NCBI GenBank assembly: GCA_963796285.1
Contig: CAWCKW010000010.1
Span: forward strand, 1-64,000
Reading direction: 5' to 3'
Length of the DNA stretch: 64,000 nucleotides
From: Nitrospirota bacterium
GTDB taxonomy: Bacteria; Nitrospirota; UBA9217
Made by a program: the position numbers and the translations under genes. Every line of letters starts with the position of its first letter. Positions within the stretch are counted from its first letter, which is position 1. Shown one piece after another: positions 38,498 through 51,182 of the stretch. The notes under the pieces are model-generated. The model was not told where the DNA came from, did no database searches, and was given only the letters and a program-made list of their open reading frames with translations.

Positions 38498-38505
38498 TGG
38501 TAATC

Positions 38506-39315
38506 ATGTCGACCAGCGTCGAACACCAGTTCAGCCAGGTCATCGCGGCTCAGCGGCGGTCCTGGCAACGCACCCTGACGCTCGGCGCGGCAGTCACGGC
38601 CGTAATCGTACTTTGCTCATGGTTCGTCGGGCTTTTTGACGCTCGTCGGCTGATGGAAGGCGTACCCAGCATCTTGGGCCTGATGCGGGAGGGGTTTCCA
38701 CCGAACTTCAGGGATGCGGGAACATGGATCAAACCCCTTTTCGATACAGTAGCCATGAGCATCGGCGGCACTGCGCTCGCCGTCCTGCTGTCTTTTCCCC
38801 TTGCCCTGTGCGCGGCGTCCAATACATCGCCGCACCCGCTCGTTTACTCTGCGGCGCGAGGTGTGCTGAACCTGCTCCGTTCCATTCCGGAGTTGATCAT
38901 GGGCATAGTGTTCGTTGCCGCGGTCGGCTTCGGCGCTTTGCCCGGCGTCCTCGCGCTGGGGCTGCATTCGATCGGAATGGTCGGCAAATTCTATGCCGAG
39001 GCGATCGAGCTCGTCAATAAGGAGCCGGTGGAAGCGGTGCGCGCTGCGGGCGCGAGAAAGCTTCAAGTAATCTTCCACGGCATCCTGCCCCAGGTGCTTC
39101 CCCAGATGGCCGACGTATCCATTTACCGCTGGGAATATAACTTTCGTGCCTCGACCGTCATGGGCATGGTCGGTGCGGGCGGCATCGGCTTCGAGCTGAT
39201 GGCGTCACTCAGGATCATGCAGTACCAGGATGTTTCAGCAATCCTGCTCGTCATCCTGCTGATGGTCACACTCGTAGACCGCCTTGGTTCTGCATTGCGA
39301 AGGAAGTTCAAATAA
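38506..39315 (+). CDS. ptxC: Phosphite ABC permease (PhnE family)
   Basis: [43 protein letters not shown]. Confidence 0.9.
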
Positions 39316-39337
39316 TTTTGAACGGAGAAAAAAGAGC

Positions 39338-40399
39338 ATGAGACCAAAAGTAGTTATCACCGAATGGGTACACCCCGAAGTCATCGAACGTTTACAAAGG
39401 GAGTGCGACGTTGTTCCCAACGATACACGGGATACGCTGTCGCGTGAGGAGCTTTTACATCGCGCTTCGAATGCACAGGCCATCATGGCATTCATGACCG
39501 ACCGCATTGATAATGACTTTCTCTCCTTATGTCCCGAACTGAAGGTTATAAGCGCCGCGCTCAAGGGCTATGACAATTTCGACGTAGATGCCTGCACCAG
39601 GAGAGGAATCTGGTTCACCATCGTCCCCGACCTTCTCACCATCCCCACAGCAGAACTGGCGATCGGCCTCCTCATTGGCCTCGGCCGTCATGTACTCGAG
39701 GGTGACCGTTTCATAAGGAGCTGCGCGTTCAAGGGCTGGCGGCCGCAACTGTACGGAACGGGCCTCGCGGGCCGGACGCTCGGTATCATCGGGATGGGTG
39801 CAGTAGGACAGGCGGTCGCCCAACGCCTGGCCGGGTTCGGTATGCGCGCTTTGACCTACAATGATCCGGTTCGGCTTCCCCTGGAGACCGAGGAGGCGTT
39901 GCGGCTGTCGCCGACGTCCTTCGAGGAAGTGATGGCGACGAGCGACTTCGTCCTCCCGCTCACACCCCTGACTCCTGCGACCAGGCATCTTATCGGCCGA
40001 CAGGAGATCGCCATGATGATGCGAGGAAGCTATTTGGTGAACGTGTGCCGCGGTTCCGTCGTGGACGAGCAGGCGGTTGCTGAGGCGCTCGCCGACGGCC
40101 ATTTAGCAGGGTATGCCGCCGATGCCTTCGAGCTGGAGGACTGGGCTCTCGACGACCGTCCCCGCATAATCGCACCCGCACTCCTTACCGACGACTCTCA
40201 CACCCTGTTCACTCCGCATATCGGATCCGCAGTCGACGACGTCCGGCGCGAGATCGCTATGCAAGCAGCACAGAATATACTCCAGGCGATGAACGGTGAA
40301 ACGCCGGCGGGTGCGTTGAATGATCCGATGGTGACTACAGGCAAAGGCCTCCCCGGCCTTTACAAGAGCATTGGAGCGGCCTGTTCTCGCTCACGATAG
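39338..40399 (+). CDS. ptxD: NAD-dependent phosphite dehydrogenase
   Basis: [74 protein letters not shown] (catalytic R/E/H present). Confidence 0.93.
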
Positions 40400-40686
40400 A
40401 GCGGCCCGGCGGTGCTATCCGTCTGCGCGGTCTTAACAAGGGGTATATGCCTTTCTCTGCATCGAATATCGGCGGCGATTCGGTCGTCGAGGTCCTGCAT
40501 GAGCTCTTTAGCCCTATTTTGGACTCGGTGCCGGATCGCAATGCCTAACTTCGAACATGCAACTCCCGGTGACACTCGGAATGGCGGCCTATTGCTGCTC
40601 GGATGATAATGATCGATGTCGATGCAGCGGCGTAATCGAAGATCCTTTACGTCCATTGCCGAAGGGAACGGATCATGATAAAAGAT

Positions 40687-40740
40687 TTAACACAATCTTA
40701 ACATTCCCGTAATACGGGTGAAATAATGAGTAGGTATAAT
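40687..40740 (+). promoter_or_regulatory. Pho-box array (4 x 11 bp) plus -10
   Basis: TTAACA/TTAACA/GTAATA/GAAATA; TATAAT at 40735. Confidence 0.8.
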
Positions 40741-40764
40741 CAGTTTAATTAATTTGGATACGTT

Positions 40765-41088
40765 ATGAAGATTATAAAAATGACCAAGAAAACAGACAAT
40801 CTCACCTGTCCGGCTTGCGCCTCTGAAGCGGTTTATAAATACGGCCATATCAACAACGGCAAGCAGCGTCTCAGATGCATTTTGTGCGGAAGACAGTTTG
40901 TTCTCGGCTTTGCGAGGCATGAATTGGAGAAGCGTCCAACCTGTCCCCAATGCGGCTTCAAGATGCACCTTTACATGCATGATAAAAAAGCGATTCGATT
41001 CAGGTGCTCAGAATATCCTGTTTGCAAATCGTATATAAAAATCCCCTTCAAGAAGGAGGTCTCATCTCATGAACTGCTACGTGCATAA
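40765..41088 (+). CDS. Double Zn-ribbon protein (IS1 InsA-like N-terminal ribbon plus topoisomerase C4-like ribbon)
   Basis: CPAC..VYKYGH..NGKQRLRCILCGRQF; CPQCG...FRCSEYPVC; no DDE domain adjacent. Confidence 0.75.
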   Translation: MKIIKMTKKTDNLTCPACASEAVYKYGHINNGKQRLRCILCGRQFVLGFARHELEKRPTCPQCGFKMHLYMHDKKAIRFRCSEYPVCKSYIKIPFKKEVSSHELLRA

Positions 41089-41440
41089 TGTGCCGGGAAG
41101 ACTGCGGATAAAAAGTTCCTTGTTCAAAAAAAGCTCAGTCCACTATGAGGTTCGAAAAGCCCTCGTGGATATGGGTCATGGTATCGGAACCGCTGAATTC
41201 AATCCAACCACAGGCAGTCTTTTGATTCACTATGATCACAAAGAGGTCTGTCATCAGGACATCCTGCGCACCCTGGAGCATGCCGGCTTCTATCATCCCG
41301 ACAAAAAGATCACGAACGACCAGGTAATCCACCGGGCGACGTCCAAAGCATTCAACGTGGTGGCCAAGGCGGTATCCGGAGCTTTCATTGAAACGGCCCT
41401 TCAGGGTTCGGGCTTATCATTTCTGGCTTTATTGCTCTAA
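41069..41440 (+). CDS. HMA2-domain protein
   Basis: YVHNVPGRLRIK, FNPTTGSLLIHYD; hydrophobic C-terminus; RBS AAGGAGG. Confidence 0.8.
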   Translation: MNCYVHNVPGRLRIKSSLFKKSSVHYEVRKALVDMGHGIGTAEFNPTTGSLLIHYDHKEVCHQDILRTLEHAGFYHPDKKITNDQVIHRATSKAFNVVAKAVSGAFIETALQGSGLSFLALLL

Positions 41441-42004
41441 CACAAAGTCCATCTATTCCTTTTCCCAGCATGCACCAGGATCGACGCTGCTCTACTCTCA
41501 TTTTCACGGAGTTGAGACAGGCAGTAAACACGAATGCATCGAATACAAGAACCATACTCATCATGCCATCCTCTCCTCCGTTTCTTATTCGCTGCTACGT
41601 ATGAATGCACTCCCGTGGTGTTCAGCCATATCCCGTTAGAAGTCATCCAGCGCGCGCTTGAGCTTTGAGCGATGAGCCTTTTTCAATTCCGGCGGGAGCT
41701 TGACGACTTTTATGCCCCATTCCTCATTTGATTATGCCTGCCTCTGTTAAGCCCTCACACGTACACGAAAAAAGAGAAGGGGCAGCTATTCTTCAAGATC
41801 ACTTCGTCTGCCTGTCTTTGGTTATATGCACAGGTTGCCGGGAAAGATGTCGCGGATTTTTGAATCAGTAAGCATTCTATCGAAGCTAGACTTAGTTATA
41901 TTTCATTACTTGCGCGTACCGCATCCCGGCATTAGCTTTCCCTTGTGGATTTGCAAGGTCCGATTCATTTACAAGTTCAAAACCGCTATCGGGATCGAGT
42001 CTGT

Positions 42005-42265
42005 TCACAACTCCCGCGAATGGCCCCTCCTGCTTTCTATGTCAGTCGTCGGCGTAGTATCCCGCAGCAGGTCTTTGACGCGCTTTGAGACAAGTGCAGA
42101 GAGAAAGTATTTGATCCGTGCGGTCCGCGAATAGTGCCTCAGCACCATCTGGTAAATGGTCGTAACACGCTCCTTTGGCCGCTTCAGGCTCTGCGCGAGG
42201 TTTTCGACCGCGATCTCGTGATGTCGTGGGCCCGCTTCAATGTCTTGGAGAATGCGTTTGTTCAT
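42005..42265 (-). CDS. DUF3562-like three-helix protein
   Basis: HEIAVENLAQSL...VTTIYQMVLRHYSRTARIKYFLSALVSKRVKDLL aligns with 30527..30757. Confidence 0.65.
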   Translation of the reverse strand: MNKRILQDIEAGPRHHEIAVENLAQSLKRPKERVTTIYQMVLRHYSRTARIKYFLSALVSKRVKDLLRDTTPTTDIESRRGHSREL

Positions 42266-42322
42266 GTTGTGTTCCCCCTTCCTCATCCTTGGCTTTTCAC
42301 CAACAGGCTGCGGGTCATAAAA

Positions 42323-43231
42323 TCAGTCCTTTTGGTAGTCCGGAGTGAGCGCATCGTGCGCCACTGTTGTTGCTTCGTGCTGCCGTGTTTCATATCCCTC
42401 TAAGTAAATGTCGAATAAACCGAATTTCTCCCTCAGCATGTTCTTCATCAGCCTGATGGTTTCACGGCCATTTCCCGATCCGTTCGTCCTGATCCTTGCA
42501 ACGAGGATCACCTTCTCCGGTGAAAGACCCCAGATATGCATATCCTTTACATGATGTATTTCAGGGAACGATCGCTGCAGAAAGCTGGAAACTTCGTCGA
42601 CATCGATCCTGGCAGGACTCCCCTCCATCAGGATCTTAACGCTGTCCCTGATCAAGAAAAAGGTCGGATAGGCAGCCAGGCAGCCGATCAGGATGCCGGC
42701 AAGGGGGTCCACAACATAAAGGTGGGTATATCGTATGATGATGGCGGAACCGATGACACCGACCGAGCCCAGGGTATCGTTCAGGATCAGGAGCAGGGCC
42801 CCTTTTATGTTCACGTCCTTTGAATACCTATACAGTTGAACGAGACCGAAGAGGTTCGCGAAGAGGCCCAGAACGGCAATGACGAGGACTTTATCCGCTT
42901 CAATGGGTTGCGGGTGCAGGATCTTCTGGAAGGCTTCCGTGAAAACATAGAACAGGATGAAGCCAACGAGCATCCCGTTGAACAGGCCGGACAGCACTTT
43001 CGCGCGCTCGTACCCGAAGGTATTGACCTTGTCCGGCTGTCTGCGGGCCAGCCTGGTCACCCAGAGCGCGATGATCTGCCCCGAGATATTGACGGCCATG
43101 AACGACGCGTCGGTCACGAGGGCGATGCTGTGATAATAGAGCCCCCCGAACAATTCTACGAAGAAATAGGCGATTGTTACGACAAGAACGAGCGTCTGGC
43201 CTGTTACGTGCTTTTCCTCAGTTTCATGCAT
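42323..43231 (-). CDS. Cation diffusion facilitator (CzcD/ZitB-like) with atypical metal site
   Basis: FFVELFGG...SIALVTDASFMAVN, TFGYERAKVL, NIKGALLLILNDTLGS, LMEGSP, DMHIW. Confidence 0.88.
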   Translation of the reverse strand: MHETEEKHVTGQTLVLVVTIAYFFVELFGGLYYHSIALVTDASFMAVNISGQIIALWVTRLARRQPDKVNTFGYERAKVLSGLFNGMLVGFILFYVFTEAFQKILHPQPIEADKVLVIAVLGLFANLFGLVQLYRYSKDVNIKGALLLILNDTLGSVGVIGSAIIIRYTHLYVVDPLAGILIGCLAAYPTFFLIRDSVKILMEGSPARIDVDEVSSFLQRSFPEIHHVKDMHIWGLSPEKVILVARIRTNGSGNGRETIRLMKNMLREKFGLFDIYLEGYETRQHEATTVAHDALTPDYQKD

Positions 43232-43259
43232 GGTTCGCCGGCCCTTCAGTATGCCTGCC

Positions 43260-44459
43260 TCACCCTTTCAGGAGAACCGCCTTGTCAGTCAATTCCCATG
43301 GCAGGCCGATATCCATTCTTCCTACATGACCGTACGCTGCGAGCTTGCGATAAAAACCGCCCTTGATCTGAGAGGGGAGGTATCGGAGGTTGAACTGGCG
43401 TATGATCCCCGCTGTTCGAAAGTCGAAATTTTTCTCAACGAGATCTGCTATTTTTTGATCAGATTCTTTCCCGGTCCCGAAGGTTTCCACCTGGATGCTC
43501 ACCGGCCGCGAAAATCCGATGGAATAACTGAGCTGAACTTCGCAAGAGGTTGCAAGTCCGGCTGCGACGACATTCTTTGCAGCATACCGGGCGGCATAGG
43601 CGCCGATCCGGTCGATCCTCGAAGGGTCTTTCCCGCTCAAGGCTGCCCCGCTGTGGCGGGAATACTCGCCGTAGGTATCGATTGCGTTCTTTCTCCCGGT
43701 CAACCCTGAGTGCATGGCAGGACCGCCGCCGATGAAGGGACCGTCGGGATTGACGAAGATCCGGGTGTGCACATCCGGTTTGATCTCCTCGTCCTGAAAA
43801 ACAGGATTCAGCACCATCTCCCGAATATCGTCCTGGAGCCGTTTGGCATCGGGCCCGCCTTTGCCGTCGGCCCGTTTCTGGCTTGCAATAATGGTGATGC
43901 TGTGAACACGCGACGGTGTGCCGTCACGGTATTCGATGCCGACCTGGGTCTTGCCGTCGGGCGCAAGATAGTCGAGCGTTTTCTGGAGCCGTACGGAAGT
44001 GAGCTTCCGGGCAAGACGATGAGCAAGCCAGATCGGAAGTGGCATGAAGGACGCCGTTTGATCACATGCGAAACCGAACACGGTGACCTGGTTCTTGACC
44101 GGGACGCGCTCGATCTCTTCATCGGACATGGCACGCTCATCAACAGGACGACGTTCTTCCTGTGGGAATTCCTTCAAGCTCGTCACAATGCTGCAGGTCT
44201 TCGCGTTGAAGGCATGCTGGTCGTAACCGACCTGGCTTATCACCTGTCGCGCTACATTTGCAAAGTCCATATGAGCAACAGCTGCGAACCTCGCAGCAAT
44301 AAATACGATCGCCGTGGAAACGGCGCATTCGGCAATGACCTTCGCATAGGGGTCTTTTTGGAGGTAATGATCGACAACGGCATCGCTGATGATATCGCAG
44401 AGCTTGTCAGGATGGCCTTCGGTCACCGATTCAGAGGTGAACATGAAATCTTTTTTCAT
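43260..44459 (-). CDS. Divergent MetK (SAM synthetase)-family protein lacking methionine-binding motifs
   Basis: FTSESVTEGHPDK, PDGKTQV, GLTGRK..DTYG, SGKDPS.IDR, AAYGH present; GAGDQG replaced by PVKNQV. Confidence 0.85.
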   Translation of the reverse strand: MKKDFMFTSESVTEGHPDKLCDIISDAVVDHYLQKDPYAKVIAECAVSTAIVFIAARFAAVAHMDFANVARQVISQVGYDQHAFNAKTCSIVTSLKEFPQEERRPVDERAMSDEEIERVPVKNQVTVFGFACDQTASFMPLPIWLAHRLARKLTSVRLQKTLDYLAPDGKTQVGIEYRDGTPSRVHSITIIASQKRADGKGGPDAKRLQDDIREMVLNPVFQDEEIKPDVHTRIFVNPDGPFIGGGPAMHSGLTGRKNAIDTYGEYSRHSGAALSGKDPSRIDRIGAYAARYAAKNVVAAGLATSCEVQLSYSIGFSRPVSIQVETFGTGKESDQKIADLVEKNFDFRTAGIIRQFNLRYLPSQIKGGFYRKLAAYGHVGRMDIGLPWELTDKAVLLKG

Positions 44460-44486
44460 TTGACCCTCTCTATGAACTATGCATGC

Positions 44487-47400
44487 TCAAGTAACTGCAA
44501 AAACTTGATTGCCGTTCAATACCGGAACCGGGGCCGTTGAACTGCCATTCAGCACCAACGATGGAGCAGAGATCCTCTTCGTCGCTTCGTTAATGAGCAG
44601 GGGAGCGACAGCGGTCCCGATCGAAATTGCCAGGTCGAGGGGATTCAGCGGGCTCATCCCGAGGAAACTCCGGAGGCCCGGGACGACCAGGGTTAGCGAT
44701 TGCAATCCCAGCGAGCCTGTCAGGGCAACGGTGAGATAGTTGTTTGGCGCGAGCCGCGCAGCGTCAAAGATACTGTGGGTCTCGGAACGGTGGCTGATGG
44801 CGTGCAGGAGCCCTGCCGTGACAAAGTTCGTGAAAGCCATCGTGCTGGCTTGGGGCCCCTGCCCGTAGCGCAGGACTCCGTAGCCGTAGGCCGTCAGCGT
44901 CCCCGCCGAGATGGTGGAAGCCTCGAAGAGGAGCCTTTTAAAGTCTGCCGTATTGATGAGCTGTTCCTGGGGATTGCGGGGAGGCCGCAGGAGCACATCC
45001 GGCTCGGGCGGTTCCTGGGCAAGGGCAAGGCCAGGGAAGATGTCCGAGATCATGTTGATCCAGAGAAGCTGCATGACGTTGAACGGTTGTCCCATGCCGG
45101 CGGCAAGAGCGGTGAACATGATCATGATCTCGCTCGTGTTCTTCGAAAGCATGTACCGGACAGATTTTCGCAAATTGTTGTAGATCGTCCGCCCCTGGCT
45201 GATGGCCACGACCATTGTCTCGAGGTTGTCATCTTCCAGGATCACGTCTGCTACCTCCCGCGCCACGTCAGTCCCCGTGTGTCCCAGAGCGATCCCGATG
45301 TCGGCCGCCTTGAGCGCAGGTCCGTCGTTGATGCCGTCGCCGGTCATGCCAATGACCTTTCCTGCTGCCTGGAGCGCCTGGACGATCTGAAGCTTGTTGG
45401 CCGGGCTCACCCGGGCGAAGACATGGATCCGCCCGGCAAGTGCCGTCATGACCTCGGGTTCAAGCTGTGATAGATTGGTCGAGTCCAGGATCTCCAGTTC
45501 CTCGCCCTTGCTCAGATTGAGCTCCTTGCCGATGGCATACGCCGTGGGGCTCTGGTCCCCGGTGATCATAACGGTATCGATCCCGGCACGGTGGAACGTG
45601 TTGATGAGATTCTTGACGCCGCTCCTGACCACATCCGCCATGCCGACGAGTCCGACCCAGACGAGTCCCTGCTGGATGATCTCATCGCTGCGCAGGGTAT
45701 CTCCGTTGGTCACGGCATAGGCTACGGCCAGCACGCGGAGCGCTTCACCGGCCATCCGTTCATTTTCTGCATCGAAGACCGCGCGGGTATCGTTGTCCAT
45801 CACCAGTTGCCGGCCGTCCTTGACGTACCATTTGCAGACTGACAGCACATCGGACGGGCTGCCCTTGAGAGCCATAAGCCGCTGCCGGTCATTCGAACTA
45901 TGCACGGTGCTCATAAACTGCCGGTCTTCCGATCGGTAGTTCAGCTTCACGATGGGGTGCTGGGTCCGAAGCGAGTTGACATCCACGCCGGCGCTGAGCG
46001 CAAGGTTCACGAGGGCGTTTTCCGTCGATGAACCCTCGACGAGATAATCTCCTTCCAGTCCCGATACTATCGATTCATTACACAGCACTGACAGATGGAG
46101 CAGACGGAGGACGTCCTCGCTCGTATAGGGATTTATGCTTTTTCCTTCCGCCATGATCCTGCCATTAACAACATCGAGACGGCGCATGCCTGCATGGATC
46201 TGGACCACCGACATCTTGTTCATGGTGATGGTGCCGGTCTTGTCAAGACAGATGGTCTCGACCGAGCCGAGCGTTTCGACGGCGTCAAGGTGACGGATGA
46301 GCACATTCAGACCCCGCATGCGCTTGATGCCGAGCGCGAGGGTCGTCGTCGCAACGGTCGGAAGCCCCTCGGGCACAGCGGCTACAGCAAGGGCAATGGA
46401 GGTCTTCAGCATCTGGAGAAAACCGTAACCACGCAGAATGCCTACGATGAACACGATGCCGCATACAGTGCAGGTGATATACACCAACTGGACCCCCAGG
46501 TGGTCCATCTGCCGTTCCAAGGGCGTGTCGGGCGGCCGCGCTTCTCCCACCATGGTCTGGATCTTCCCGACCTCGGTAAAGCGACCTGTCGCCACCGCGA
46601 CGGCGCGTCCCTGTCCTCCCGTAACCAGGGTGCCCATATAGACCATGTTGGTCCGGTCGCCAAGGGGAATGTCCGATACCTTCAGTTCATCGGTGGTTTT
46701 TATCGCCGGCATGCTCTCGCCCGTCAACGCCGACTCATCGATACTCAGATATTTTGCCTCTATGAGACGGGCGTCCGCCGCGACATAGCTTCCCGGTCTT
46801 AGCACGAGCAGATCGCCGGGCACGACCTCTTTGGCATCGATGGTCGTCATGACCCCGCCGCGGATCACGGTTGAGGTCGGCTGCACGAGGTTCTTCAACC
46901 CGTGGATGATCTTTTCCGACTGGCTTTCGGTGACATACCCGATGGAGGAGTTGGTGACGACGACTCCCATGATCACGACAGCATCGGCGAGCCCGCCTGT
47001 AGCAACGGAAATGCCGGCAGCAACGCAGAGGAGAGCTACAGGAAGGGACTTGAACTGATCGAAAAAGATGCTCCAGCCTGAGCGAGGAACGGATTCAGGC
47101 AGAATGTTGGGACCATATTGGATGTACAAAAGGCGGGCTGCTTCTTCGGATAAACCGTTTGACGCTGATGTGCCCCATCGCTGCAAGACATCCTTCTTCG
47201 CCACACAGTGCCAAGGTTCTGCCTGCTGGTCCTCTGCATTGGCAACCTGTTTGCGAACAGTCCGCAGGCTCGGCACTTCCTTGCCAGCGGGAGTGTGGGG
47301 AGGAGAGACGGCGGTGCGCACGGGGCGTACCATCACCGTCCCTTTCCCCTGCGGCGTATCAGGGGCACGGCGTTCCTTACCCCCGACCGGGTCTCCGTTG

Positions 47401-47633
47401 GTACGCTCGACCACGGACTGCAGGAGGGAGGCCACTGCTGATGAATGATTGCCGTTCTGCGAATCGAACAGCACGAGAACGCTTCCCGTGAGGGTGTTAA
47501 TCGAAACGCTCAGGATCCACGTGTGCTGCGCAAGATTCTGCTCGATCTGCTTTTTCAGGGACTCCGAGCGATACAGGCCCTCTACTTTATAACGGGCCCG
47601 TCCTTTTACCGATGTATGAACGGCCTGGACCAC
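44487..47633 (-). CDS. P2A-type (SERCA-like) cation P-type ATPase with N-terminal HMA2 domain
   Basis: HTSVKGRARYK..NTLTGSVLV; LTGES, AVPEGL, DKTGT, MITGD, GDGINDGPALK, SKNTSE, QLLWINMISD. Confidence 0.92.
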   Translation of the reverse strand: MVQAVHTSVKGRARYKVEGLYRSESLKKQIEQNLAQHTWILSVSINTLTGSVLVLFDSQNGNHSSAVASLLQSVVERTNGDPVGGKERRAPDTPQGKGTVMVRPVRTAVSPPHTPAGKEVPSLRTVRKQVANAEDQQAEPWHCVAKKDVLQRWGTSASNGLSEEAARLLYIQYGPNILPESVPRSGWSIFFDQFKSLPVALLCVAAGISVATGGLADAVVIMGVVVTNSSIGYVTESQSEKIIHGLKNLVQPTSTVIRGGVMTTIDAKEVVPGDLLVLRPGSYVAADARLIEAKYLSIDESALTGESMPAIKTTDELKVSDIPLGDRTNMVYMGTLVTGGQGRAVAVATGRFTEVGKIQTMVGEARPPDTPLERQMDHLGVQLVYITCTVCGIVFIVGILRGYGFLQMLKTSIALAVAAVPEGLPTVATTTLALGIKRMRGLNVLIRHLDAVETLGSVETICLDKTGTITMNKMSVVQIHAGMRRLDVVNGRIMAEGKSINPYTSEDVLRLLHLSVLCNESIVSGLEGDYLVEGSSTENALVNLALSAGVDVNSLRTQHPIVKLNYRSEDRQFMSTVHSSNDRQRLMALKGSPSDVLSVCKWYVKDGRQLVMDNDTRAVFDAENERMAGEALRVLAVAYAVTNGDTLRSDEIIQQGLVWVGLVGMADVVRSGVKNLINTFHRAGIDTVMITGDQSPTAYAIGKELNLSKGEELEILDSTNLSQLEPEVMTALAGRIHVFARVSPANKLQIVQALQAAGKVIGMTGDGINDGPALKAADIGIALGHTGTDVAREVADVILEDDNLETMVVAISQGRTIYNNLRKSVRYMLSKNTSEIMIMFTALAAGMGQPFNVMQLLWINMISDIFPGLALAQEPPEPDVLLRPPRNPQEQLINTADFKRLLFEASTISAGTLTAYGYGVLRYGQGPQASTMAFTNFVTAGLLHAISHRSETHSIFDAARLAPNNYLTVALTGSLGLQSLTLVVPGLRSFLGMSPLNPLDLAISIGTAVAPLLINEATKRISAPSLVLNGSSTAPVPVLNGNQVFAVT

Positions 47634-47688
47634 GGACTATTCCTCCCACAGTGAAATGGAAACCGGTCACAAGCCAGGCGATGACTGA

Positions 47689-48414
47689 TTAAGCCTGTTT
47701 CGACTTCGGGAGGGCACTGCCCGCTACTTCCTTCACACCTTCAACAACGCCGACAAGCATGTCCTTTACCGCCTTGACTGCCGTGTTGCCGATCAAAGCC
47801 GCCGCATCAATCGCGCCAGTGACTGCAACCTTTGCCACTTCCTCGGCATTCCCCCCGACCTCCTTCGTTGCCTCGATCACGCCATCTACGGCCCTGCGGG
47901 CAACCATGGCAACATCAGCGCCGACCTCGGCAGCACCCTTGACAGCGCCGCTGACGGTCTGTCCTGCCACGGAAATAACATCGCCGCCAACATCGCTTAC
48001 GCCCATGATCACCCCTTTTGCCACGCTCTTGGTGCTCAAGATGAGTCCGGTGCCGACCTCTTCAGTGGCCTGAATGGCCCCCTTGACTACATCCTTCGTG
48101 ATACCGACAGCTTCATCGGCCACTGCGCCTGTTGCACGAAGCGTGTTGGATACGATGTTCCTGACGAGGCTGACGATCTCCGCTTCGATCTCGTTGATCC
48201 CCTTGAGACTGCTCACGACACCCTCTCTCACTGCAGATCCTGCTTTGCCGATGTCCCGGGCTGACGTTTCACTACCTATGGACTTTGCGTTTGTCATGTC
48301 TGCTCCTTTAGTTGTTGTCCTAGTTGTAATCTTCTGATCCGATCCCGATGATGTGCCGTGCGGACCGCGCTTCACTGTCTTCTTCGCTGGTGCCTTTTGT
48401 TTGCTGTCACTCAT
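47689..48414 (-). CDS. Hypothetical protein with 11/22-residue amphipathic helical repeats
   Basis: RBS AAGGAGG; KGAIQATEEVG, KGVIMGVSDVG, SGAVKGAAEVG, DGVIEATKEVG, TGAIDAAALIG at 22-aa period. Confidence 0.8.
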   Translation of the reverse strand: MSDSKQKAPAKKTVKRGPHGTSSGSDQKITTRTTTKGADMTNAKSIGSETSARDIGKAGSAVREGVVSSLKGINEIEAEIVSLVRNIVSNTLRATGAVADEAVGITKDVVKGAIQATEEVGTGLILSTKSVAKGVIMGVSDVGGDVISVAGQTVSGAVKGAAEVGADVAMVARRAVDGVIEATKEVGGNAEEVAKVAVTGAIDAAALIGNTAVKAVKDMLVGVVEGVKEVAGSALPKSKQA

Positions 48415-48592
48415 AATATCCTCCTTGCCAAGGTTCACAAAAACTTATCGTATCTTCTTGTATCCTGGATATTTTGATAATTCCGGGAATGGATATCTTG
48501 GGAATGCCGAATTGTCTGCTACTCGAATTTTTCGTAGCTGACAAGGCGGAAAGGAACTGGAAGAGTTCCCGCTTATCTAAGAGCTGCTTATG

Positions 48593-49078
48593 TTATTTCT
48601 TTTCCCCGTCTTTTGTTTTCGAGTAGAGATTGTATGCATACCAGTATGCTGCAGACCACGGTATTGGCCCCGCATTCCCTGACAGGATTTGCACACTACC
48701 CGCTATAACTAATGCTCCGACTGCAAACCCGCTCAGGTCCATATCACCACCCGTGAGGTTCTGTATCTGCCGATCAACGCTCTTGAATGTCTCCCCAAGG
48801 TTCCGGTGAAGATTTGCTGAGGGTACCCTTGAATCCTTTTGTTCCTGTAAAGAAAAAAGGTTCCCGGATCGCGCATACTCCGCAATCTCATGCACCGTCG
48901 TTTGGTGAAGCAAGAGTATACTCCCCGTACCCGGATTCACCTCAATGGAGAGAATGCCCGGACACGCGGCAAGCTGATCCCCCTGGGACTTTAGTGCTGC
49001 AAGGTTCCCTTTTTGTGAGGAGATCCTGATTCGTAATCTCCCGGTCGATGCATGGGCAATGACGGCATCAGGAATCAT
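48593..49078 (-). CDS. HMA2-domain membrane protein
   Basis: IAHASTGRLRIR, VNPGTGSILLLH; C-terminal hydrophobic segment with PWSAAYWYA. Confidence 0.8.
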   Translation of the reverse strand: MIPDAVIAHASTGRLRIRISSQKGNLAALKSQGDQLAACPGILSIEVNPGTGSILLLHQTTVHEIAEYARSGNLFSLQEQKDSRVPSANLHRNLGETFKSVDRQIQNLTGGDMDLSGFAVGALVIAGSVQILSGNAGPIPWSAAYWYAYNLYSKTKDGEKK

Positions 49079-49413
49079 GACGCGGCTGGCCTGCGTTTGG
49101 ATCTTGCCGCTACCGGTGCTGCTGCCGCTGCAACAGCCTCTGCAGCCGTTGGTGCTGCCGCAGCTGCTGCTGTCGACTCGGCCAATTCCGCCTTTGCTTC
49201 AGCCACAATATCCTCCGTGATTTCAGCAACCTCGGCAAAAGTTTCCTTGCCGCGTTCATACATCTGCATACCTCCTTTTATTGCGGCTTTTGCCAGAGGC
49301 TTCGCGATATTGGCAAACAAAGGGATAACTACAGGTGCCAATATTGCTGCTCCGATGCCGATAGCCAGACCAGTAACAATATTACCTTTCAATACATCAT
49401 CAAATAGTGCCAT
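49075..49413 (-). CDS. DUF5132-like GxxxG membrane-associated protein
   Basis: RBS AAGGAGG; TGLAIGIGAAILAPVVIP...KPLAKAAIKGG...EDIVAEAKAEL. Confidence 0.8.
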   Translation of the reverse strand: MALFDDVLKGNIVTGLAIGIGAAILAPVVIPLFANIAKPLAKAAIKGGMQMYERGKETFAEVAEITEDIVAEAKAELAESTAAAAAAPTAAEAVAAAAAPVAARSKRRPAAS

Positions 49414-49955
49414 GAGATATCCTCCTTTTATATTTTAAATATTATCTCCTTCATGCTGTGAAGTCTACCTGCTCTTTCATTACTTCCCTACATAGCACTT
49501 TTGTAACCAATTCATTGCGCAGGCCGCTGAAAAAGGATTTATACTGTTGTCCTGAATCCGTTAACATGTTCAGGACAGCTCGACCTTGCTTCTCACCCGT
49601 GATTTCATCGATTTAAGCAAGGCGCTGGATTTCGGTAAACTCGTTTACTTCGGTTAGCATTTATTCTACTTAGCACGTTGAACGCTAACATCCTTTCAGC
49701 AGGCAAAGCTTGCCACAAGGATCACCCGGCATCCTGCACTAAGTATCCATCGCAAAGAACTTGTGCCAGGTATACTCTTGCCTAGTATGAAAGTGTACAA
49801 TAATATGTAGAATGGCGAGAGTATCGAAACGACTTTTTACAGATTATTCCCCATCACGAAAGGAGCACACTGTGAAGGGTAAGAAACGATCGACGTGAAC
49901 AAAGAGAATCAAACAAAGAATGACGTGAGTGAATGTCCAGTCGAAAACGCCCTGG

Positions 49956-50557
49956 CTGTAACACAATCTTAACTTGACCTATGATCAGAGGTGCGGTAGT
50001 TTATGACATCTAAAAGTGATTGATCTCCGCGAGCCGTTACAAATGGTTTACGATGGAATCGACAACACACTTTCGGATAAAAGCAAAGAATCGCTTTCGC
50101 GTGTGTTAAAGCGCGGCTTGGCAGTTACTTCATTGCTTATGAGTATTCAGATGTGAGCTCCAAAGGCATAGAAGGTCATAAATATGAATTTATTAAATCG
50201 CACGGACGCAAAACAGATCATTGTGGAATATCTCGGGGAAAGCTTCGGGTCGTACACAGCAAAGATGCCTATCCTCGATATAAACGAGACTGGCGTTAAG
50301 GGTCGGAATTTCCTCGGTAAATGCGCCTTTGAAGAATGTTGGGTCGCGTACATGACGGATAACAGAACTCGCTTCAGCCTGGCTCCCTCTCGCATTATTT
50401 GCATTCTGAAGAAGACGGGTGAGATTATCTATGACGGCAGCGAAGGCGGCGGGAACCGAGAAAAAGCCTGACGAGCTATCCGAGTATCTGAAGTGCAACC
50501 TCCTCTGCCCATAACCTTACAATACCCCGTCTGTAACACAATCTTAACTTGACCTAT
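49956..50557 (+). repeat. 27-bp perfect direct repeat (49956-49982 and 50531-50557) containing a Pho-box pair
   Basis: CTGTAACACAATCTTAACTTGACCTAT twice, flanking ORF 50184..50471. Confidence 0.85.
50184..50471 (+). CDS. Hypothetical protein
   Basis: 95-aa ORF with GAAGGT RBS; ends SRIICILKKTGEIIYDGS. Confidence 0.55.
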   Translation: MNLLNRTDAKQIIVEYLGESFGSYTAKMPILDINETGVKGRNFLGKCAFEECWVAYMTDNRTRFSLAPSRIICILKKTGEIIYDGSEGGGNREKA

Positions 50558-50676
50558 TTATAGATTTATAGATATCCTATAATAATTATCCACCCTTTTT
50601 AATTCCGTTCTTTTTTTTATCTAGATTGTTTTTAAATTGGTATTTTTTCTACAGAATGCGATAGGAGATTGCAATT

Positions 50677-51117
50677 ATGACCAAACCAAAGGCGTTATTC
50701 CTTTGTACAGGGAACTCAGCCCGCAGCCAAATGGCTGAAGCATTTCTCAGAAAATATGCTGGGGAGAAGTATGAAGTTCACAGTGCAGGTTTGGAGCCAA
50801 AAAGAATTAATCCTTATACAATTCGTGTAATGGAGGAAGTTGGCGTCAGTTTGAATGGTTATAAATCAAAAAGTGTGAAAGAATATATGGGGAAGGTACA
50901 TGTCGCATATTTTTTCACCGTCTGCGATCAAGCTGAAAAAAACTGTCCGCGAACTTTTCTGATGAGCGTAGGGCGACACGTCCGTTGGGGGTTTGAAGAC
51001 CCCGCAGCATTTGAGGGAACAGATGAGGAAAAGCTATCAAAATTCCGGGAAGTTCGAGACCAGATTGACCAAAAAATCATAGAGTGGTTAGGAGAACAAG
51101 GCGTTACTGTTCCCTGA
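50677..51117 (+). CDS. arsC: Arsenate reductase, LMW-PTP/thioredoxin-coupled type
   Basis: LFLCTGNSARSQMAE, SAGLEP, TVCDQAEKNCP, WGFEDPA, FREVRDQI. Confidence 0.9.
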   Translation: MTKPKALFLCTGNSARSQMAEAFLRKYAGEKYEVHSAGLEPKRINPYTIRVMEEVGVSLNGYKSKSVKEYMGKVHVAYFFTVCDQAEKNCPRTFLMSVGRHVRWGFEDPAAFEGTDEEKLSKFREVRDQIDQKIIEWLGEQGVTVP

Positions 51118-51182
51118 ACAACACATTGAGGAAAAAACATGGGGGCAGCCTTTGACAGGAGACACTTTATGGCGGTATGGGC

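What the first reader, a model, noticed from the sequence alone, without database searches (positions are those of the whole stretch)
41069..49413. Candidate new system: ferrosome-like accessory proteins + HMA2-fused P2A ATPase + methionine-blind MetK + His-less CDF
Seen: a compact minus-strand operon of DUF5132-like GxxxG protein, HMA2-TM protein, 11/22-mer amphipathic repeat protein, HMA2-P2A ATPase, divergent MetK, divergent CDF and DUF3562-like protein. A convergent, Pho-linked HMA2 gene lies next to it, all inside a P-starvation region. Established: ferrosome (fez) operons pair small GxxxG and HMA-like proteins with a P1B-6 ATPase to build iron-phosphate storage vesicles. Here the pump is instead a PEGL-type P2A (Ca/Mn-like) ATPase, and two more genes have altered ligand sites. 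Inference: a membrane-bound cation-(poly)phosphate storage or mobilisation compartment (acidocalcisome-like), or another undescribed metal/phosphate module. I saw no Pho array for the minus-strand operon itself.
Basis: partly seen in the sequence, partly recalled or inferred. Interest (0 to 1): 0.9.

Follow-up and report, generated by a model that had tools for sequence, protein, structure and literature searches.

The report
Phosphate-starvation calcium-pump cassette with altered MetK
A conserved, widely shared gene cassette sitting among phosphate-starvation genes couples a calcium-type ion pump to a MetK-derived protein that can no longer bind methionine and to three small membrane-associated proteins, and nobody seems to have described what it does.

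Summary
Window 42005-49413 (minus strand) encodes DUF5132, a CoBaHMA(HMA_2)-TM protein, a 22-residue helical-repeat protein, a CoBaHMA-fused P2A ATPase, a second MetK, a CDF and a DUF3562 protein. A convergent Zn-ribbon/CoBaHMA pair lies behind a perfect Pho-box-like array.

The five-gene core is conserved in order. Of 56 loci with enough flank, 55 hold the ATPase, 54 the repeat protein, 50 CoBaHMA-TM and 45 DUF5132. By record titles these span Nitrospirota, Desulfuromonadales, Binatia, NC10, anammox Planctomycetota and, in a reduced form, cyanobacteria. CDF and DUF3562 are variable.

The neighbours are Pho genes: pst, phoU, phoBR-like, psiE, ornithine-lipid and glycolipid genes.

- **MetK paralogue:** 78 of 78 have lost the methionine ligands (E55R, D238H, Q98 gone) but keep the triphosphate/metal residues.
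- **Pump:** it keeps SERCA-type Ca ligands in M4-M6.
- **CDF:** its HD-HD site is F,N / L,(N)D.

It is not a ferrosome: there is no P1B-6 pump and no recurrent iron genes. It does share the parts kit seen at ferrosome and cyanobacterial Ca-carbonate loci.

Most likely it is a phosphate-limitation-linked Ca-type cation module at a specialised membrane. A compartment and any polyphosphate link are unproven; PPK1 and PPK2 were not found in this genome.

The parts
49474..49491 (-). Cassette-specific upstream element GTAGG(G/T)AAGTAATGAAAG. It is followed by a -35-like TAGACT (49462-49467) and a -10-like TAATAT (49439-49444).
   Evidence: The core is invariant in 11 aligned upstream regions. It is unique in the window and in the genome. 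In 39 of 51 loci it has 2 or fewer mismatches, mostly 77-110 nt before the DUF5132 start. The -35/-10 reading is my inference from the alignment.
49075..49413 (-). DUF5132 protein (112 aa): an N-terminal hydrophobic GLAIGIG segment followed by a conserved helix.
   Evidence: Pfam PF17195, 45.7 bits. It is the only copy in the genome. Alignment A2. Hydrophobic segments at 7-36.
48593..49078 (-). CoBaHMA (HMA_2) domain with a C-terminal hydrophobic hairpin (161 aa). Its start overlaps the DUF5132 stop by 4 bp.
   Evidence: Pfam PF19991, 54.6 bits, profile positions 10-151 of 154. Motif HASTGRLRIR.
47689..48438 (-). Helical-repeat protein with 22-residue repeats. The likely true start is ATG 48414, behind an AAGGAGGA ribosome-binding site.
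   Evidence: No Pfam or NCBIfam family. Periodicity. AF2 model with pLDDT 79 and seven helices. It is 58-88% identical across most loci. Start context.
44487..47633 (-). P2A-type cation ATPase (1048 aa) with an N-terminal CoBaHMA domain and a poorly conserved linker of about 65 residues.
   Evidence: Pfam and NCBIfam. The closest solved structures are SPCA1 and LMCA1. Ion-site and catalytic motifs are conserved in 62 of 62 full-length relatives. Linker conservation.
43260..44459 (-). MetK-derived paralogue (399 aa). The methionine ligands are replaced and the triphosphate/metal ligands are kept.
   Evidence: TIGR01034 scores 376 bits against 605 bits for the genome's canonical MetK. Residue table. 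Monophyletic clade.
42323..43231 (-). CDF transporter with a degenerate transport site: TM2 DASFMAVN and TM5 LILNDTLGS.
   Evidence: Pfam. Alignments to ZnT7 and SLC30A10. The same residues occur in 14 of 14 CDFs of the loci.
42005..42286 (-). Small basic DUF3562 protein (93 aa, pI 10.5). It is variable in the cassette.
   Evidence: Pfam, 30.2 bits. pI. A family of this kind occurs in 26 of 81 loci, window included.
41069..41440 (+). Convergent small CoBaHMA protein (123 aa), with no transmembrane segment found in my hydropathy scan. Its start overlaps the end of the Zn-ribbon gene.
   Evidence: HMA_2, 29.7 bits, just under the cut-off. Genome search gives 28.3 bits. Motif HNVPGRLRIK. No transmembrane segment in the scan.
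40765..41088 (+). Double Zn-ribbon protein (107 aa, pI 9.7), a candidate regulator.
   Evidence: NCBIfam IS1/IS1595 N-terminal Zn-binding domain, 47 bits. This family occurs in 38 of 81 loci, usually paired with the small CoBaHMA gene.
40687..40714 (+). Pho-box-like array (TTAACA-N5-TTAACA-N5-GTAATA) overlapping the -35 of the Zn-ribbon/CoBaHMA promoter.
   Evidence: Perfect match. Promoter-like TTAACA, 18 nt, AATAAT with an upstream TG. The same placement before the Zn-ribbon gene accounts for 16 of 80 box hits in the loci.

Best explanation
This is a real accessory gene cassette that spreads between phyla and belongs to the phosphate-limitation gene neighbourhood.

Its engine is a SERCA/SPCA-like P-type pump whose membrane ligands fit Ca2+ best. 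The pump carries an N-terminal CoBaHMA domain.

The next gene is packed tightly behind the pump gene, often with overlapping stop and start codons. It encodes a protein derived from SAM synthetase (MetK). That protein can no longer hold methionine but keeps the pocket that grips the triphosphate of ATP with Mg and K.

In anaerobes three small proteins precede the pair:
- a GxxxG membrane protein (DUF5132);
- a CoBaHMA domain on a membrane hairpin;
- a very conserved helical-repeat protein.

A second divalent-cation carrier often follows. It is a CDF with oxygen-only ligands, or CorA, or MgtE.

My reading is this. When phosphate runs short, the cell switches the cassette on. In this genome the signal probably passes through the Pho-controlled Zn-ribbon/CoBaHMA pair and a dedicated operator. 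In some other genomes Pho boxes act directly. The pump then moves Ca2+-type cations out of the cytosol across a specialised membrane patch or internal vesicle, which the CoBaHMA, DUF5132 and repeat proteins organise. The MetK-derived protein acts as an ATP- or triphosphate-binding partner, either a hydrolase or a sensor.

**Shown:** the genes, their conservation, the altered sites and the Pho neighbourhood.

**Inferred:** the ion, induction by phosphate limitation, the regulatory cascade, the specialised membrane, and any contact between pump and MetK-like protein.
For: **Synteny**
- The MetK paralogue fetched 80 loci.
- Of 56 loci with at least 5.2 kb upstream, 55 hold the ATPase, 54 the repeat protein, 50 CoBaHMA and 45 DUF5132, in the same order.
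- The ATPase stop overlaps the MetK start by 4 bp in 29 of 75 loci. The gap is 34 nt or less in 62 of 75.

**Pump**
- TGES, DKTGT, TGD and GDGxND are present in 62 of 62 full-length relatives.
- So are E422 (M4), N832 and E835 (M5), and N860 and D864 (M6). S/T863 is present in 61 of 62.
- The best solved relatives are SPCA1 (512 bits) and Listeria LMCA1 (478 bits).
- A CoBaHMA domain is found on 60 of 62 full-length pumps by a local HMM. The other 2 show the motif by eye.

**MetK-like protein**
- E55R in 78 of 78, D238H in 78 of 78, and Q98 never Q.
- H14, D16, K17, E42, R244, K245, K265 and D271 are kept in 78 of 78.
- The ligand roles come from a passage in PMC1282579.
- A canonical MetK is also present in 6 of 6 carrier genomes tested.
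- The clade is monophyletic and more conserved than the pump: mean identity 0.75 against 0.63.

**Pho context**
- Recurrent neighbours are PstB-like ABC ATPases (21 loci), PstC/A (19), PstS-like binding proteins (15+9), an OmpR-type regulator (14), a PAS kinase (12), PhoU (10), PsiE (7), OlsA/OlsB-like acyltransferases (13/10) and GT21 (9).
- The window itself is a Pho island.
- Pho-box-like arrays are enriched: 13 against 1.67 expected.
- In the loci they precede the Zn-ribbon gene (16 hits) and PstS-like genes (15 hits). In some loci they precede the cassette itself: 3 boxes in L051 and a perfect box in L042. About 17 of 60 loci have a box just before the repeat gene.

**Dedicated operator:**. 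It also precedes a relocated CDF in L035.

**Second cation carrier after MetK:** CorA 9, CDF 8, MgtE 2 of 69 loci.

**Parts kit shared with mineral-inclusion loci:** passages.

**Expression hint:** contigs from two soil RNA libraries of one study lie on MetK, the ATPase, the repeat protein, CoBaHMA-TM and DUF5132, and bridge three gene junctions.
Against: - No experiment and no localisation exists, so a specialised membrane or vesicle rests on analogy only.
- In this window no Pho box lies in the right place before the main operon. Its Pho control is therefore indirect at best.
- The cyanobacterial loci have no CoBaHMA-TM or repeat gene and no Pho neighbours. Hydrococcus keeps a DUF5132 gene before the pump. 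The pump-MetK pair therefore works without most accessories and outside Pho islands.
- One genome (G103) has DUF5132, CoBaHMA-TM, the repeat protein and the pump but no MetK-like gene. The partner is not strictly obligatory.
- The M8 acidic ligand of SERCA/SPCA is Q (50), G (11) or E (1) of 62. Scores stay below the NCBIfam equivalog cut-offs. Ion specificity is therefore not settled.
- Some relatives of the repeat protein carry a MucR/Ros DNA-binding zinc finger. That fits a regulator or scaffold as well as a membrane coat.
- The RNA evidence is contigs from relatives. DNA carry-over cannot be excluded.
Confidence: 0.45

Rival explanations
1. This is an ordinary cytoplasmic-membrane Ca2+ (or Mn2+/Mg2+) efflux and homeostasis pump, switched on in phosphate limitation as a phosphate-sparing measure. 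One example would be replacing cation movement that otherwise rides on metal-phosphate transport. On this view DUF5132 and CoBaHMA-TM are small regulatory subunits of the pump, in the manner of phospholamban or MgtS, the CoBaHMA domain senses anionic lipids, and no compartment is involved.
For: - The closest solved relatives are plasma-membrane or Golgi Ca pumps.
- The Hydrococcus locus keeps DUF5132, the pump and MetK only, which suits a pump with a small subunit.
- Genes for phosphorus-free lipids (OlsA/B-like, GT21) recur nearby. The membrane's anionic lipid content would therefore change just when the cassette is on.
- CoBaHMA is proposed to bind anionic lipids, as cited in the passages.
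- CorA or MgtE after MetK fits general cation homeostasis.
Against: - It does not explain the very conserved helical-repeat protein.
- It does not explain the several CoBaHMA proteins per locus.
- It does not explain the near-obligatory MetK-derived partner.
- The phosphate-sparing rationale is my own inference and has no test.
Confidence: 0.3
2. The MetK-derived enzyme is the point of the cassette. It would transfer the adenosyl group of ATP to a new, negatively charged nucleophile, or split ATP into adenosine and triphosphate. The product would be a metabolite or a phosphorus-recycling step needed in phosphate limitation, and the pump and small proteins would serve that chemistry.
For: - The two acidic methionine ligands are replaced by basic residues in every member: E55R and D238H in 78 of 78, and K269R in 78 of 78.
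- The catalytic triphosphate/metal residues are all kept.
- The protein is under stronger constraint than the pump.
- ArsC and phosphonate/phosphite genes are occasional neighbours.
Against: - Two of the four adenosine contacts named in the literature passage are lost: S99P in 64 of 78 and R229P in 67 of 78.
- No candidate substrate gene recurs in the loci.
- One cassette lacks the gene altogether.
- No chemistry was tested.
Confidence: 0.12
3. It is a ferrosome (fez) variant that stores iron phosphate.
For: The architecture is similar. There are R-rich HMA-type N-termini on the pump and on a 2-TM protein, plus a GxxxG protein (passages).
Against: - The pump is P2A. The D[YF]SCA and HNxxT motifs are absent, and heavy-metal P1B models score far lower.
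- Of the 35 most recurrent neighbour families, the 28 I put a Pfam or NCBIfam name to include no iron-homeostasis family.
- The neighbours are Pho genes.
Confidence: 0.03
4. The genes are neighbours by chance and do not work together.
For: CDF and DUF3562 are variable, and the cyanobacterial loci are reduced.
Against: - The same order of five genes occurs in dozens of genomes from several phyla.
- Start and stop codons overlap.
- Divergence of pump and MetK-like protein is correlated (Spearman 0.67 over 1830 pairs, though kin are not independent).
- A promoter element is shared.
Confidence: 0.02

Closest known systems
Ferrosome (fez) gene clusters (bioRxiv 10.1101/2020.01.10.902569; passages read)
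   Same: A P-type pump with an R-rich N-terminus, an HMA-type protein with two membrane helices (FezC), small GxxxG membrane proteins (FezA and others), and a broad, patchy spread among anaerobes.
   Different: The pump here is P2A with Ca-type ligands, not P1B-6. The neighbours are Pho genes rather than iron genes. A MetK-derived protein and a helical-repeat protein are added. Sequence homology to FezA and FezC was not tested.
Calcyanin (ccyA) neighbourhood of Microcystis, linked to intracellular amorphous Ca carbonate (bioRxiv 10.1101/2024.07.07.602159; passages read)
   Same: DUF5132 proteins, a CoBaHMA domain on a helical hairpin, a further small CoBaHMA protein and a Ca transporter lie side by side. 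In Microcystis, ccyA is co-expressed with DUF5132, the CoBaHMA-hairpin (DUF454) gene and cax.
   Different: The transporter there is a Ca/H exchanger, not a pump. The marker protein calcyanin, with its triple glycine zipper, was not identified here. There is no MetK-like gene and no Pho context there.
SPCA1 / LMCA1 / SERCA Ca2+ pumps (PDB 8iwp, 6zhf, 5ztf)
   Same: Full P2A architecture and catalytic motifs, PEGL in M4, and N/E in M5 and N/(S,T)/D in M6 as in SERCA (residue roles recalled).
   Different: An extra N-terminal CoBaHMA domain and linker. The M8 acidic ligand is replaced by Q or G. A conserved His lies in M8 in 61 of 62. Scores are below the NCBIfam equivalog cut-offs (621 against 798; 521 against 703).
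Canonical SAM synthetase MetK (E. coli, PDB 1rg9 family)
   Same: The three-domain fold and the triphosphate, Mg and K ligands. It scores above the TIGR01034 cut-off.
   Different: All three methionine ligands are replaced, as are two of four adenosine contacts. GAGDQG becomes (K/R)NQV, and there is a 5-residue longer gating-loop region. It is always a second copy, next to the pump.
CDF zinc transporters and SLC30A10 (PDB 8j7t, 9kvx)
   Same: The fold and the conserved Asp of TM5. SLC30A10 also has Asn in place of the TM2 His.
   Different: The site is F,N (TM2) and L,(N)D (TM5) instead of H,D / H,D. This holds in 14 of 14 cassette CDFs. No histidine ligand is left.

Membership tests
Ferrosome (fez) cluster | P1B-6 ATPase with D[Y/F]SCA and HNxxT membrane motifs | tested here: not met
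   Neither motif is in the pump. PEGL is present instead. The best NCBIfam models are P2A; the heavy-metal models score 226 bits or less.
Ferrosome (fez) cluster | Small proteins with a hydrophobic GxxxG segment | tested here: met
   DUF5132 has GLAIG at residues 15-19, and G19 and G21 are invariant in 28 sequences. Homology to FezA was not tested.
Ferrosome (fez) cluster | N-terminal R-rich motif on the pump and on an HMA + 2-TM protein (FezC) | tested here: inconclusive
   GRARYK, GRLRIR and GRLRIK motifs are present, with the same architecture. No Fez sequence was available for a direct comparison.
Ferrosome (fez) cluster | Association with iron-homeostasis genes | tested here: not met
   The recurrent neighbour families that I named are Pho, lipid and cation genes. 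Seven of the 35 most recurrent families had no Pfam match or were not scanned, and the rarer families were not annotated.
CoBaHMA / Pfam HMA_2 (PF19991) | Profile match above the curated cut-off | tested here: met
   54.6 bits (TM protein) and 39.3 bits (pump) against a cut-off of 30. The plus-strand protein scores 29.7, just under.
CoBaHMA / Pfam HMA_2 (PF19991) | Extra strand beta0 with a conserved His, and conserved basic residues in beta1/beta2 | tested here: inconclusive
   The sequence motif H-x(2-4)-GRxRx[KR] is in all three proteins. It is in 59 of 62 pumps. No structure of these domains was modelled.
P2A Ca2+-ATPase (SERCA/PMR1/LMCA1 type) | Catalytic motifs and the 10-TM P2 architecture | tested here: met
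   Pfam E1-E2_ATPase, Cation_ATPase_N/C and Hydrolase. TGES, DKTGT, TGD and GDGxND are in 62 of 62.
P2A Ca2+-ATPase (SERCA/PMR1/LMCA1 type) | Ca-site ligands in M4, M5, M6 and M8 (roles recalled from SERCA) | tested here: inconclusive
   The M4 E, M5 N and E, and M6 N, S/T and D are conserved. The M8 acid is Q (50), G (11) or E (1) of 62.
P2A Ca2+-ATPase (SERCA/PMR1/LMCA1 type) | Score above the NCBIfam equivalog cut-off | tested here: not met
   TIGR01522 scores 621 against 798. TIGR01116 scores 521 against 703.
Methionine adenosyltransferase (MetK) | Family profile above the cut-off | tested here: met
   TIGR01034 scores 376 bits against 309.
Methionine adenosyltransferase (MetK) | Methionine ligands Glu55, Gln98 and Asp238 (E. 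coli numbering) | tested here: not met
   R, L/S/V/F and H in 78 of 78 paralogues. They are conserved in the 12 canonical sequences, one of which has a gap at E55 and Q98.
Methionine adenosyltransferase (MetK) | Triphosphate and metal ligands | tested here: met
   H14, D16, K17, E42, R244, K245, K265 and D271 are kept in 78 of 78. K165 is kept in 77 of 78. K269 becomes R in 78 of 78.
CDF Zn/Co/Mn exporter | Transport site A: (H/D)xxxD in TM2 and HxxxD in TM5 | tested here: not met
   FxxxN and LxxxD, with an extra N before the D, in 14 of 14.
Intracellular Ca-carbonate (ccyA) gene set | Calcyanin with a triple glycine-zipper C-terminal domain | not testable with these tools
   No calcyanin sequence or profile was at hand. 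The repeat protein matches no Pfam family and no natural solved fold.
Pho regulon | Pho-box array at the promoter | tested here: inconclusive
   Met for the Zn-ribbon/CoBaHMA operon. Not met for the main operon in this window. Met in some other loci, such as L051, L042 and about 17 of 60 before the repeat gene. The box consensus for this phylum is inferred from its placement before pstS, phnC and psiE.
Acidocalcisome-like polyphosphate store | Polyphosphate kinase in the genome and a proton pyrophosphatase in the gene set | tested here: not met
   PF02503 and PF03976 were not found in this 96%-complete genome. An H+-PPase exists but lies on another contig.

The most novel reading that the evidence does not exclude
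The cassette may build or serve a so far unseen bacterial calcium compartment that is switched on by phosphate hunger. In it, a P-type pump would work hand in hand with a soluble enzyme recruited from SAM synthetase. That enzyme would now act on the triphosphate chain (ATP, tripolyphosphate or polyphosphate ends) rather than making SAM. This would be the first P-type ATPase with a MetK-derived partner, and a third member, after ferrosomes and Ca-carbonate inclusions, of a class of CoBaHMA-organised mineral or ion organelles.
Probability: 0.22. Interest if true: 0.92.

Novelty: new variant of a known kind. Interest (0 to 1): 0.78.

Why it matters
**A neofunctionalised housekeeping enzyme.** A whole clade of MetK has given up methionine while keeping its triphosphate chemistry, and it is tied to an ion pump. 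That is a clean, testable case of a core enzyme taking on a new function.

**A shared parts kit.** The same kit (CoBaHMA domains, DUF5132) now appears next to three different cation transporters: a P1B-6 pump, a Ca/H exchanger and a P2A pump. This suggests a general machinery for handling ions at special bacterial membranes.

**An unexplored response to phosphate scarcity.** The cassette sits among phosphate-starvation genes in soil, peat, sediment and anammox lineages, going by MAG record titles and coded run labels. It may be part of how uncultured anaerobes cope with low phosphate.

**Concrete handles for experiments.**
- The 18-bp operator and the Pho-controlled Zn-ribbon gene give a regulatory circuit to test.
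- Cultured cyanobacteria carrying the reduced pump-MetK pair (record titles Hydrococcus rivularis NIES-593 and a Nostoc MAG) offer a way in.

Tried and rejected
**Contact between DUF5132 and the pump.** Complex prediction with pump residues 160-1040 plus DUF5132 residues 1-95, using my own alignments A1 and A2, gave no verdict. The score was 0.00 in two runs and the controls were not run. I draw nothing from it.

**A docking motif in the pump's linker.** Residues 61-135 are poorly conserved, so I did not test the CoBaHMA linker against MetK.

**Fusion proteins as a sign of contact.** Of 135 long MetK relatives, only 3 join P-type ATPase domains to a MetK-like part (P0064, P0065, P0078). All three are singletons, and all are shorter than the pump plus MetK. 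They may be frameshifts or decayed genes, so this is weak evidence.

**Riboswitches or other known RNA families.** Rfam over 40000-53000 gave only one chance-level hit. The window holds no tRNA.

**Polyphosphate link.**
- PPK1 and PPK2 were not found in the own genome.
- PPK1 was found in 2 of 5 other carrier genomes.
- PPK2 was not tested in the others.
- Ppx/GppA and an H+-PPase exist elsewhere in the genome.

**MucR zinc finger.** None was found in the repeat proteins of my 80 loci.

**Fold of the repeat protein.** Foldseek against the PDB gave no match at E <= 0.001. The nearest chains are de novo designed helical repeats. The protein atlas gave only unnamed clusters and one 'phasin' cluster at 0.93, which is a weak lead.

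**RNA runs.** These are contigs only, from relatives 92-99% alike. Depth cannot rank genes, parts without cover prove nothing, and DNA carry-over is possible.

**Literature.** Searches found no paper on this cassette or on a pump-linked MetK paralogue.
- The paper that defines CoBaHMA architectures (Gaschignard et al. 2024) is not held. I know it only from citations and recall, and it may already list CoBaHMA-fused P-type pumps.
- Supplementary tables of the ferrosome paper could show whether DUF5132 or HMA_2 proteins sit in fez clusters. They were closed.

Full report
**What is there**

The window carries eight long ORFs at the stated coordinates.

| Window coordinates | Strand | Assignment |
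|---|---|---|
| 49075-49413 | - | DUF5132 |
| 48593-49078 | - | HMA_2 over nearly the whole protein |
| 47689-48438 | - | no family |
| 44487-47633 | - | P2-type ATPase with N-terminal HMA_2 |
| 43260-44459 | - | MetK |
| 42323-43231 | - | CDF |
| 42005-42286 | - | DUF3562 |
| 41069-41440 | + | small HMA_2 protein, just under the Pfam cut-off |

The small HMA_2 gene overlaps the end of a double Zn-ribbon gene at 40765-41088(+). The minus-strand genes are packed: a 4-bp overlap, then gaps of 154, 55, 27, 28 and 36 bp. All three HMA_2 matches of the 3.58-Mb genome lie in this locus, as does its only DUF5132 match. HMA_2 is the Pfam name for the CoBaHMA domain (passages; domain defined in PMC8890360, passages).

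**Is it a unit?**

I used the MetK paralogue to fetch related loci from species-representative genomes. Of 385 relatives, the best 80 were kept.

- tblastn with the window's proteins and an ORF clustering show the same order: DUF5132, CoBaHMA-TM, repeat protein, pump, MetK.
- Of 56 loci (window included) with at least 5.2 kb upstream of MetK, 55 hold the pump, 54 the repeat protein, 50 a CoBaHMA gene and 45 DUF5132.
- By their record titles the loci come from Nitrospirota and Thermodesulfovibrionia, Desulfuromonadales, Geobacteraceae, Syntrophales, Binatia, Methylomirabilota/NC10 and Brocadia-type Planctomycetota.
- Two cyanobacteria carry a reduced form. Hydrococcus has DUF5132, pump and MetK. 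A Nostoc MAG has pump and MetK.
- The pump's stop overlaps the MetK start by 4 bp in 29 of 75 loci. The gap is 34 nt or less in 62 of 75.
- CDF (14 loci) and DUF3562 (26 loci) are optional.
- The cassette is patchy. A paralogue-type MetK (at least 61% identity) was found in 43 of 301 sampled genomes of the phylum, and in 3 of 8 genomes of the window's own genus.
- DUF5132 was found in 16 of 121 sampled genomes of the phylum. Fifteen of those 16 are paralogue carriers.
- The exception, G103, has DUF5132, CoBaHMA-TM, the repeat protein, the CoBaHMA-pump and a convergent small CoBaHMA gene, but no MetK-like gene. It is flanked by CBS/cNMP-DUF294 nucleotidyltransferase genes.

**Phosphate context**

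The most recurrent neighbours in the loci are as follows:

| Neighbour family | Loci |
|---|---|
| PstB-like ABC ATPase | 21 |
| PstC/A | 19 |
| PstS-like binding proteins | 15 + 9 |
| OmpR-type response regulator | 14 |
| PAS histidine kinase | 12 |
| PhoU | 10 |
| PsiE | 7 |
| OlsA-like acyltransferase | 13 |
| OlsB-like acyltransferase | 10 |
| GT21 glycosyltransferase | 9 |
| PHP phosphoesterase | 9 |
| CorA | 9 |

Reading the acyltransferases and GT21 as genes for phosphorus-free lipids is my inference from the family names.

The window itself is a Pho island. It holds:
- a PhoB-like regulator and a kinase;
- a porin and PsiE;
- a PhnCDE-like transporter with a PtxD-like dehydrogenase;
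- ArsC and PstSCAB;
- three phosphodiesterase ORFs;
- GT21 and a bifunctional OlsF-like gene.

A direct-repeat motif, TTAACA-N5-TTAACA, occurs 13 times in the window against 1.67 expected. It resembles the Bacillus PhoP box as I recall it. It sits before the phnC-like gene, psiE, arsC and pstS. A perfect copy lies at 40687-40703, overlapping the -35 of the Zn-ribbon/CoBaHMA operon.

In the loci, boxes with at most one mismatch lie before the Zn-ribbon gene (16 hits), PstS-like genes (15) and a small unknown gene (9). In some genomes they lie before the cassette itself:
- three boxes before the operon in the Brocadia locus L051;
- a perfect box before the repeat gene in L042;
- hits before the repeat gene in L022, L023, L027 and L052.

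With two mismatches allowed, about 17 of 60 loci have a plus-oriented box just before the repeat gene.

In this window the main operon has no such box. Instead it has an 18-bp element, GTAGG(G/T)AAGTAATGAAAG (49474-49491).
- The element is followed by -35-like and -10-like hexamers.
- It is invariant in 11 aligned relatives and unique in the genome.
- It is kept with at most 2 mismatches in 39 of 51 loci.
- It also precedes a relocated CDF in L035.
- It tends to co-occur with the Zn-ribbon gene: 22, 3, 3 and 4 in the two-by-two table of 32 full-flank loci. Kin are not independent, so this is only a lead.

The lead is a cascade: PhoB activates the Zn-ribbon protein, which then acts on the operator. 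That cascade is inference.

**The pump**

- The best solved relatives are human SPCA1 (512 bits), Listeria LMCA1 (478 bits) and SERCA2 (399 bits).
- In 62 full-length relatives, TGES, DKTGT, TGD and GDGxND are invariant. So are E422 in the PEGL motif, N832 and E835 in M5, and N860 and D864 in M6. S/T863 is present in 61.
- The M8 position that is acidic in SPCA1 (seen in the alignment) and in SERCA (recalled) is Q in 50, G in 11 (this window's subgroup) and E in 1. A His follows in 61.
- This is closest to a SERCA-type two-site Ca pump with a neutralised M8 ligand. The ion is still an inference, and scores stay under the NCBIfam equivalog cut-offs.
- P1B-6 motifs are absent.
- The N-terminal CoBaHMA domain is found on 60 of 62 full-length pumps by a local HMM, and the other 2 show it by eye. 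The cyanobacterial pumps have it too.
- The linker behind the domain is not conserved.

**The MetK-derived protein**

- The genome has a canonical MetK on another contig: 605 bits to TIGR01034, against 376 bits for the paralogue.
- Five other carrier genomes also have both kinds.
- I aligned 78 paralogues with 12 canonical sequences, including E. coli MetK taken from its genome record.
- A review passage names Gln98, Asp238 and Glu55 as methionine ligands, and Asp163, Arg229, Phe230 and Ser99 as adenosine contacts (PMC1282579).

| E. coli residue(s) | Role | State in the 78 paralogues |
|---|---|---|
| Glu55 | methionine ligand | Arg in 78 |
| Asp238 | methionine ligand | His in 78 |
| Gln98 | methionine ligand | never Gln |
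| Ser99 | adenosine contact | Pro in 64 |
| Arg229 | adenosine contact | Pro in 67 |
| Asp163 | adenosine contact | kept in 77 |
| Phe230 | adenosine contact | kept in 72 |
| Asp118 | GAGDQG motif | Asn in 70 |
| H14, D16, K17, E42, R244, K245, K265, D271 | triphosphate/metal | kept in 78 |
| K165 | triphosphate/metal | kept in 77 |
| K269 | triphosphate/metal | Arg in 78 |

- The paralogues form one clade: 78 of 78 tips, support 0.89, stem 0.86 substitutions per site.
- They are more conserved than the pump, with mean pairwise identity 0.75 against 0.63.
- So this is a constrained protein that keeps the ATP-triphosphate/Mg/K pocket and has turned the methionine pocket basic.
- I cannot tell whether it hydrolyses tri- or polyphosphate, transfers adenosine to an anionic partner, or only senses a ligand.

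**The CDF and the slot after MetK**

- Against ZnT7 and SLC30A10, the TM2 pair H(or N),D is F,N. The TM5 pair H,D is L,D with an added Asn.
- The same holds in 14 of 14 cassette CDFs.
- In 69 loci with enough sequence, the next same-strand gene after MetK is CorA in 9, this CDF in 8 and MgtE in 2.
- An oxygen-only site and the Mg channels that can replace the CDF hint at Mg2+ or Ca2+. This is inference.

**The small proteins**

- The three CoBaHMA proteins share H-x(2-4)-GRxRx[KR] and TGSxL.
- DUF5132 has an invariant small-residue segment and a conserved acidic helix.
- The repeat protein is unusually conserved: 58-88% identical across most loci, where the pump is 52-90%.
- It has a basic N-terminal tail of about 60 residues. 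Its model has seven helices, pLDDT 79 and pTM 0.67. Its nearest solved shapes are designed helical repeats.
- Five of its 63 database relatives carry a C-terminal MucR/Ros zinc finger. The repeat module can therefore be joined to a DNA-binding domain.

**Expression**

Contigs from two soil RNA libraries of one study, 92-99% alike, lie on MetK, the pump, the repeat protein, CoBaHMA-TM and DUF5132. They bridge the MetK/pump, repeat/CoBaHMA-TM and CoBaHMA-TM/DUF5132 junctions. They come from relatives, and DNA carry-over cannot be excluded.

**Comparison with known systems**

- *Ferrosome clusters.* They pair a P1B-6 pump bearing an R-rich N-terminus with FezC (HMA plus two TM helices) and GxxxG proteins. 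The architecture matches, but the pump class and the neighbourhood do not.
- *The Microcystis ccyA neighbourhood.* It holds two DUF5132 genes, a CoBaHMA-hairpin gene, a small CoBaHMA gene and a Ca/H exchanger. DUF5132, the CoBaHMA-hairpin gene and the exchanger are co-expressed with ccyA. This is the closest published parallel.
- *A polyphosphate store.* This is not supported by gene content.

**Mechanism and rivals**

I favour a phosphate-limitation-linked Ca-type cation module that works at a specialised membrane, with the MetK-derived protein as its triphosphate-binding partner (0.45).

The rivals are:
- a plain efflux pump with small regulatory subunits (0.30);
- a cassette built around new adenosyl or triphosphate chemistry (0.12);
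- a ferrosome variant (0.03);
- chance adjacency (0.02).

**Limits**

- No Fez or calcyanin sequences were at hand.
- The CoBaHMA architecture paper is not held.
- The complex prediction gave no verdict.
- Nine literature searches found no description of this cassette.

Noticed in passing
P0001, P0003, P0006, P0026, P0043 (database relatives of window 47689-48414): Some relatives of the helical-repeat protein carry a C-terminal MucR/Ros-type zinc finger (PF05443) after the repeat domain. One is named a MucR family regulator from a Syntrophobacteraceae MAG.
   Followed up: partly
window 52350-52625 and 36217-36492 (+); partial copy near 40590-40660: Two paralogous small ORFs of about 91 aa with no Pfam family each end just before a Pho-box-like array and a phosphorus-uptake operon (pstS and the phnC-like gene). 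The last roughly 40 bases of this unit recur before the Zn-ribbon gene. The Pho promoters therefore look like copies of one repeated module.
   Followed up: partly
window 49955-49981 and 50530-50556: A 27-bp direct repeat containing a Pho-box-like site flanks a 95-aa ORF (50184-50471, no family) and precedes arsC. One DNA-run contig skips 50495-51167, so some strains seem to lack this stretch.
   Followed up: no
window 24241-24987 / 25016-25981, and 57454-57963 / 57927-58580: The sensor kinase next to the PhoB-like regulator is split into a Cache/HAMP ORF and a PAS/kinase ORF. One of the phosphodiesterase genes is split into two overlapping ORFs. These may be frameshifts, decay or assembly errors.
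   Followed up: no
window 36794-40399 (+): A PhnCDE-like ABC transporter is followed by a PtxD-like 2-hydroxyacid dehydrogenase. This looks like a phosphite uptake and oxidation operon behind a Pho-box-like array at 36540-36567.
   Followed up: no
window 60107-63237 (+): A GT21 glycosyltransferase is followed by a 617-aa protein that joins an acyltransferase and an OlsB-type GNAT domain. It looks OlsF-like and would make phosphorus-free lipids.
   Followed up: no
whole genome G000: Neither PPK1 (PF02503) nor PPK2 (PF03976) was found in this 96%-complete genome. A Ppx/GppA and an H+-pyrophosphatase are present.
   Followed up: partly
L117:1299-3263 and L106:1853-3022 (genome G103): A cassette without the MetK-like gene is flanked on both sides by DUF294 nucleotidyltransferase genes; the complete one (L117) also carries CBS and cNMP-binding domains. 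These might stand in for the MetK-like partner.
   Followed up: partly
window 51452-52006 (+): A 184-aa ORF without any family recurs near the cassette in 7 loci at 59-89% identity.
   Followed up: no
L012:12941-15658, L013:12520-15159, L023:12599-14281: Some loci hold a second P-type ATPase without a CoBaHMA domain a few kilobases after the MetK-like gene.
   Followed up: no
window 48001-52000: G+C falls to 0.43-0.49 here, against about 0.55 elsewhere. Together with the patchy spread within the genus, this fits an acquired island.
   Followed up: no
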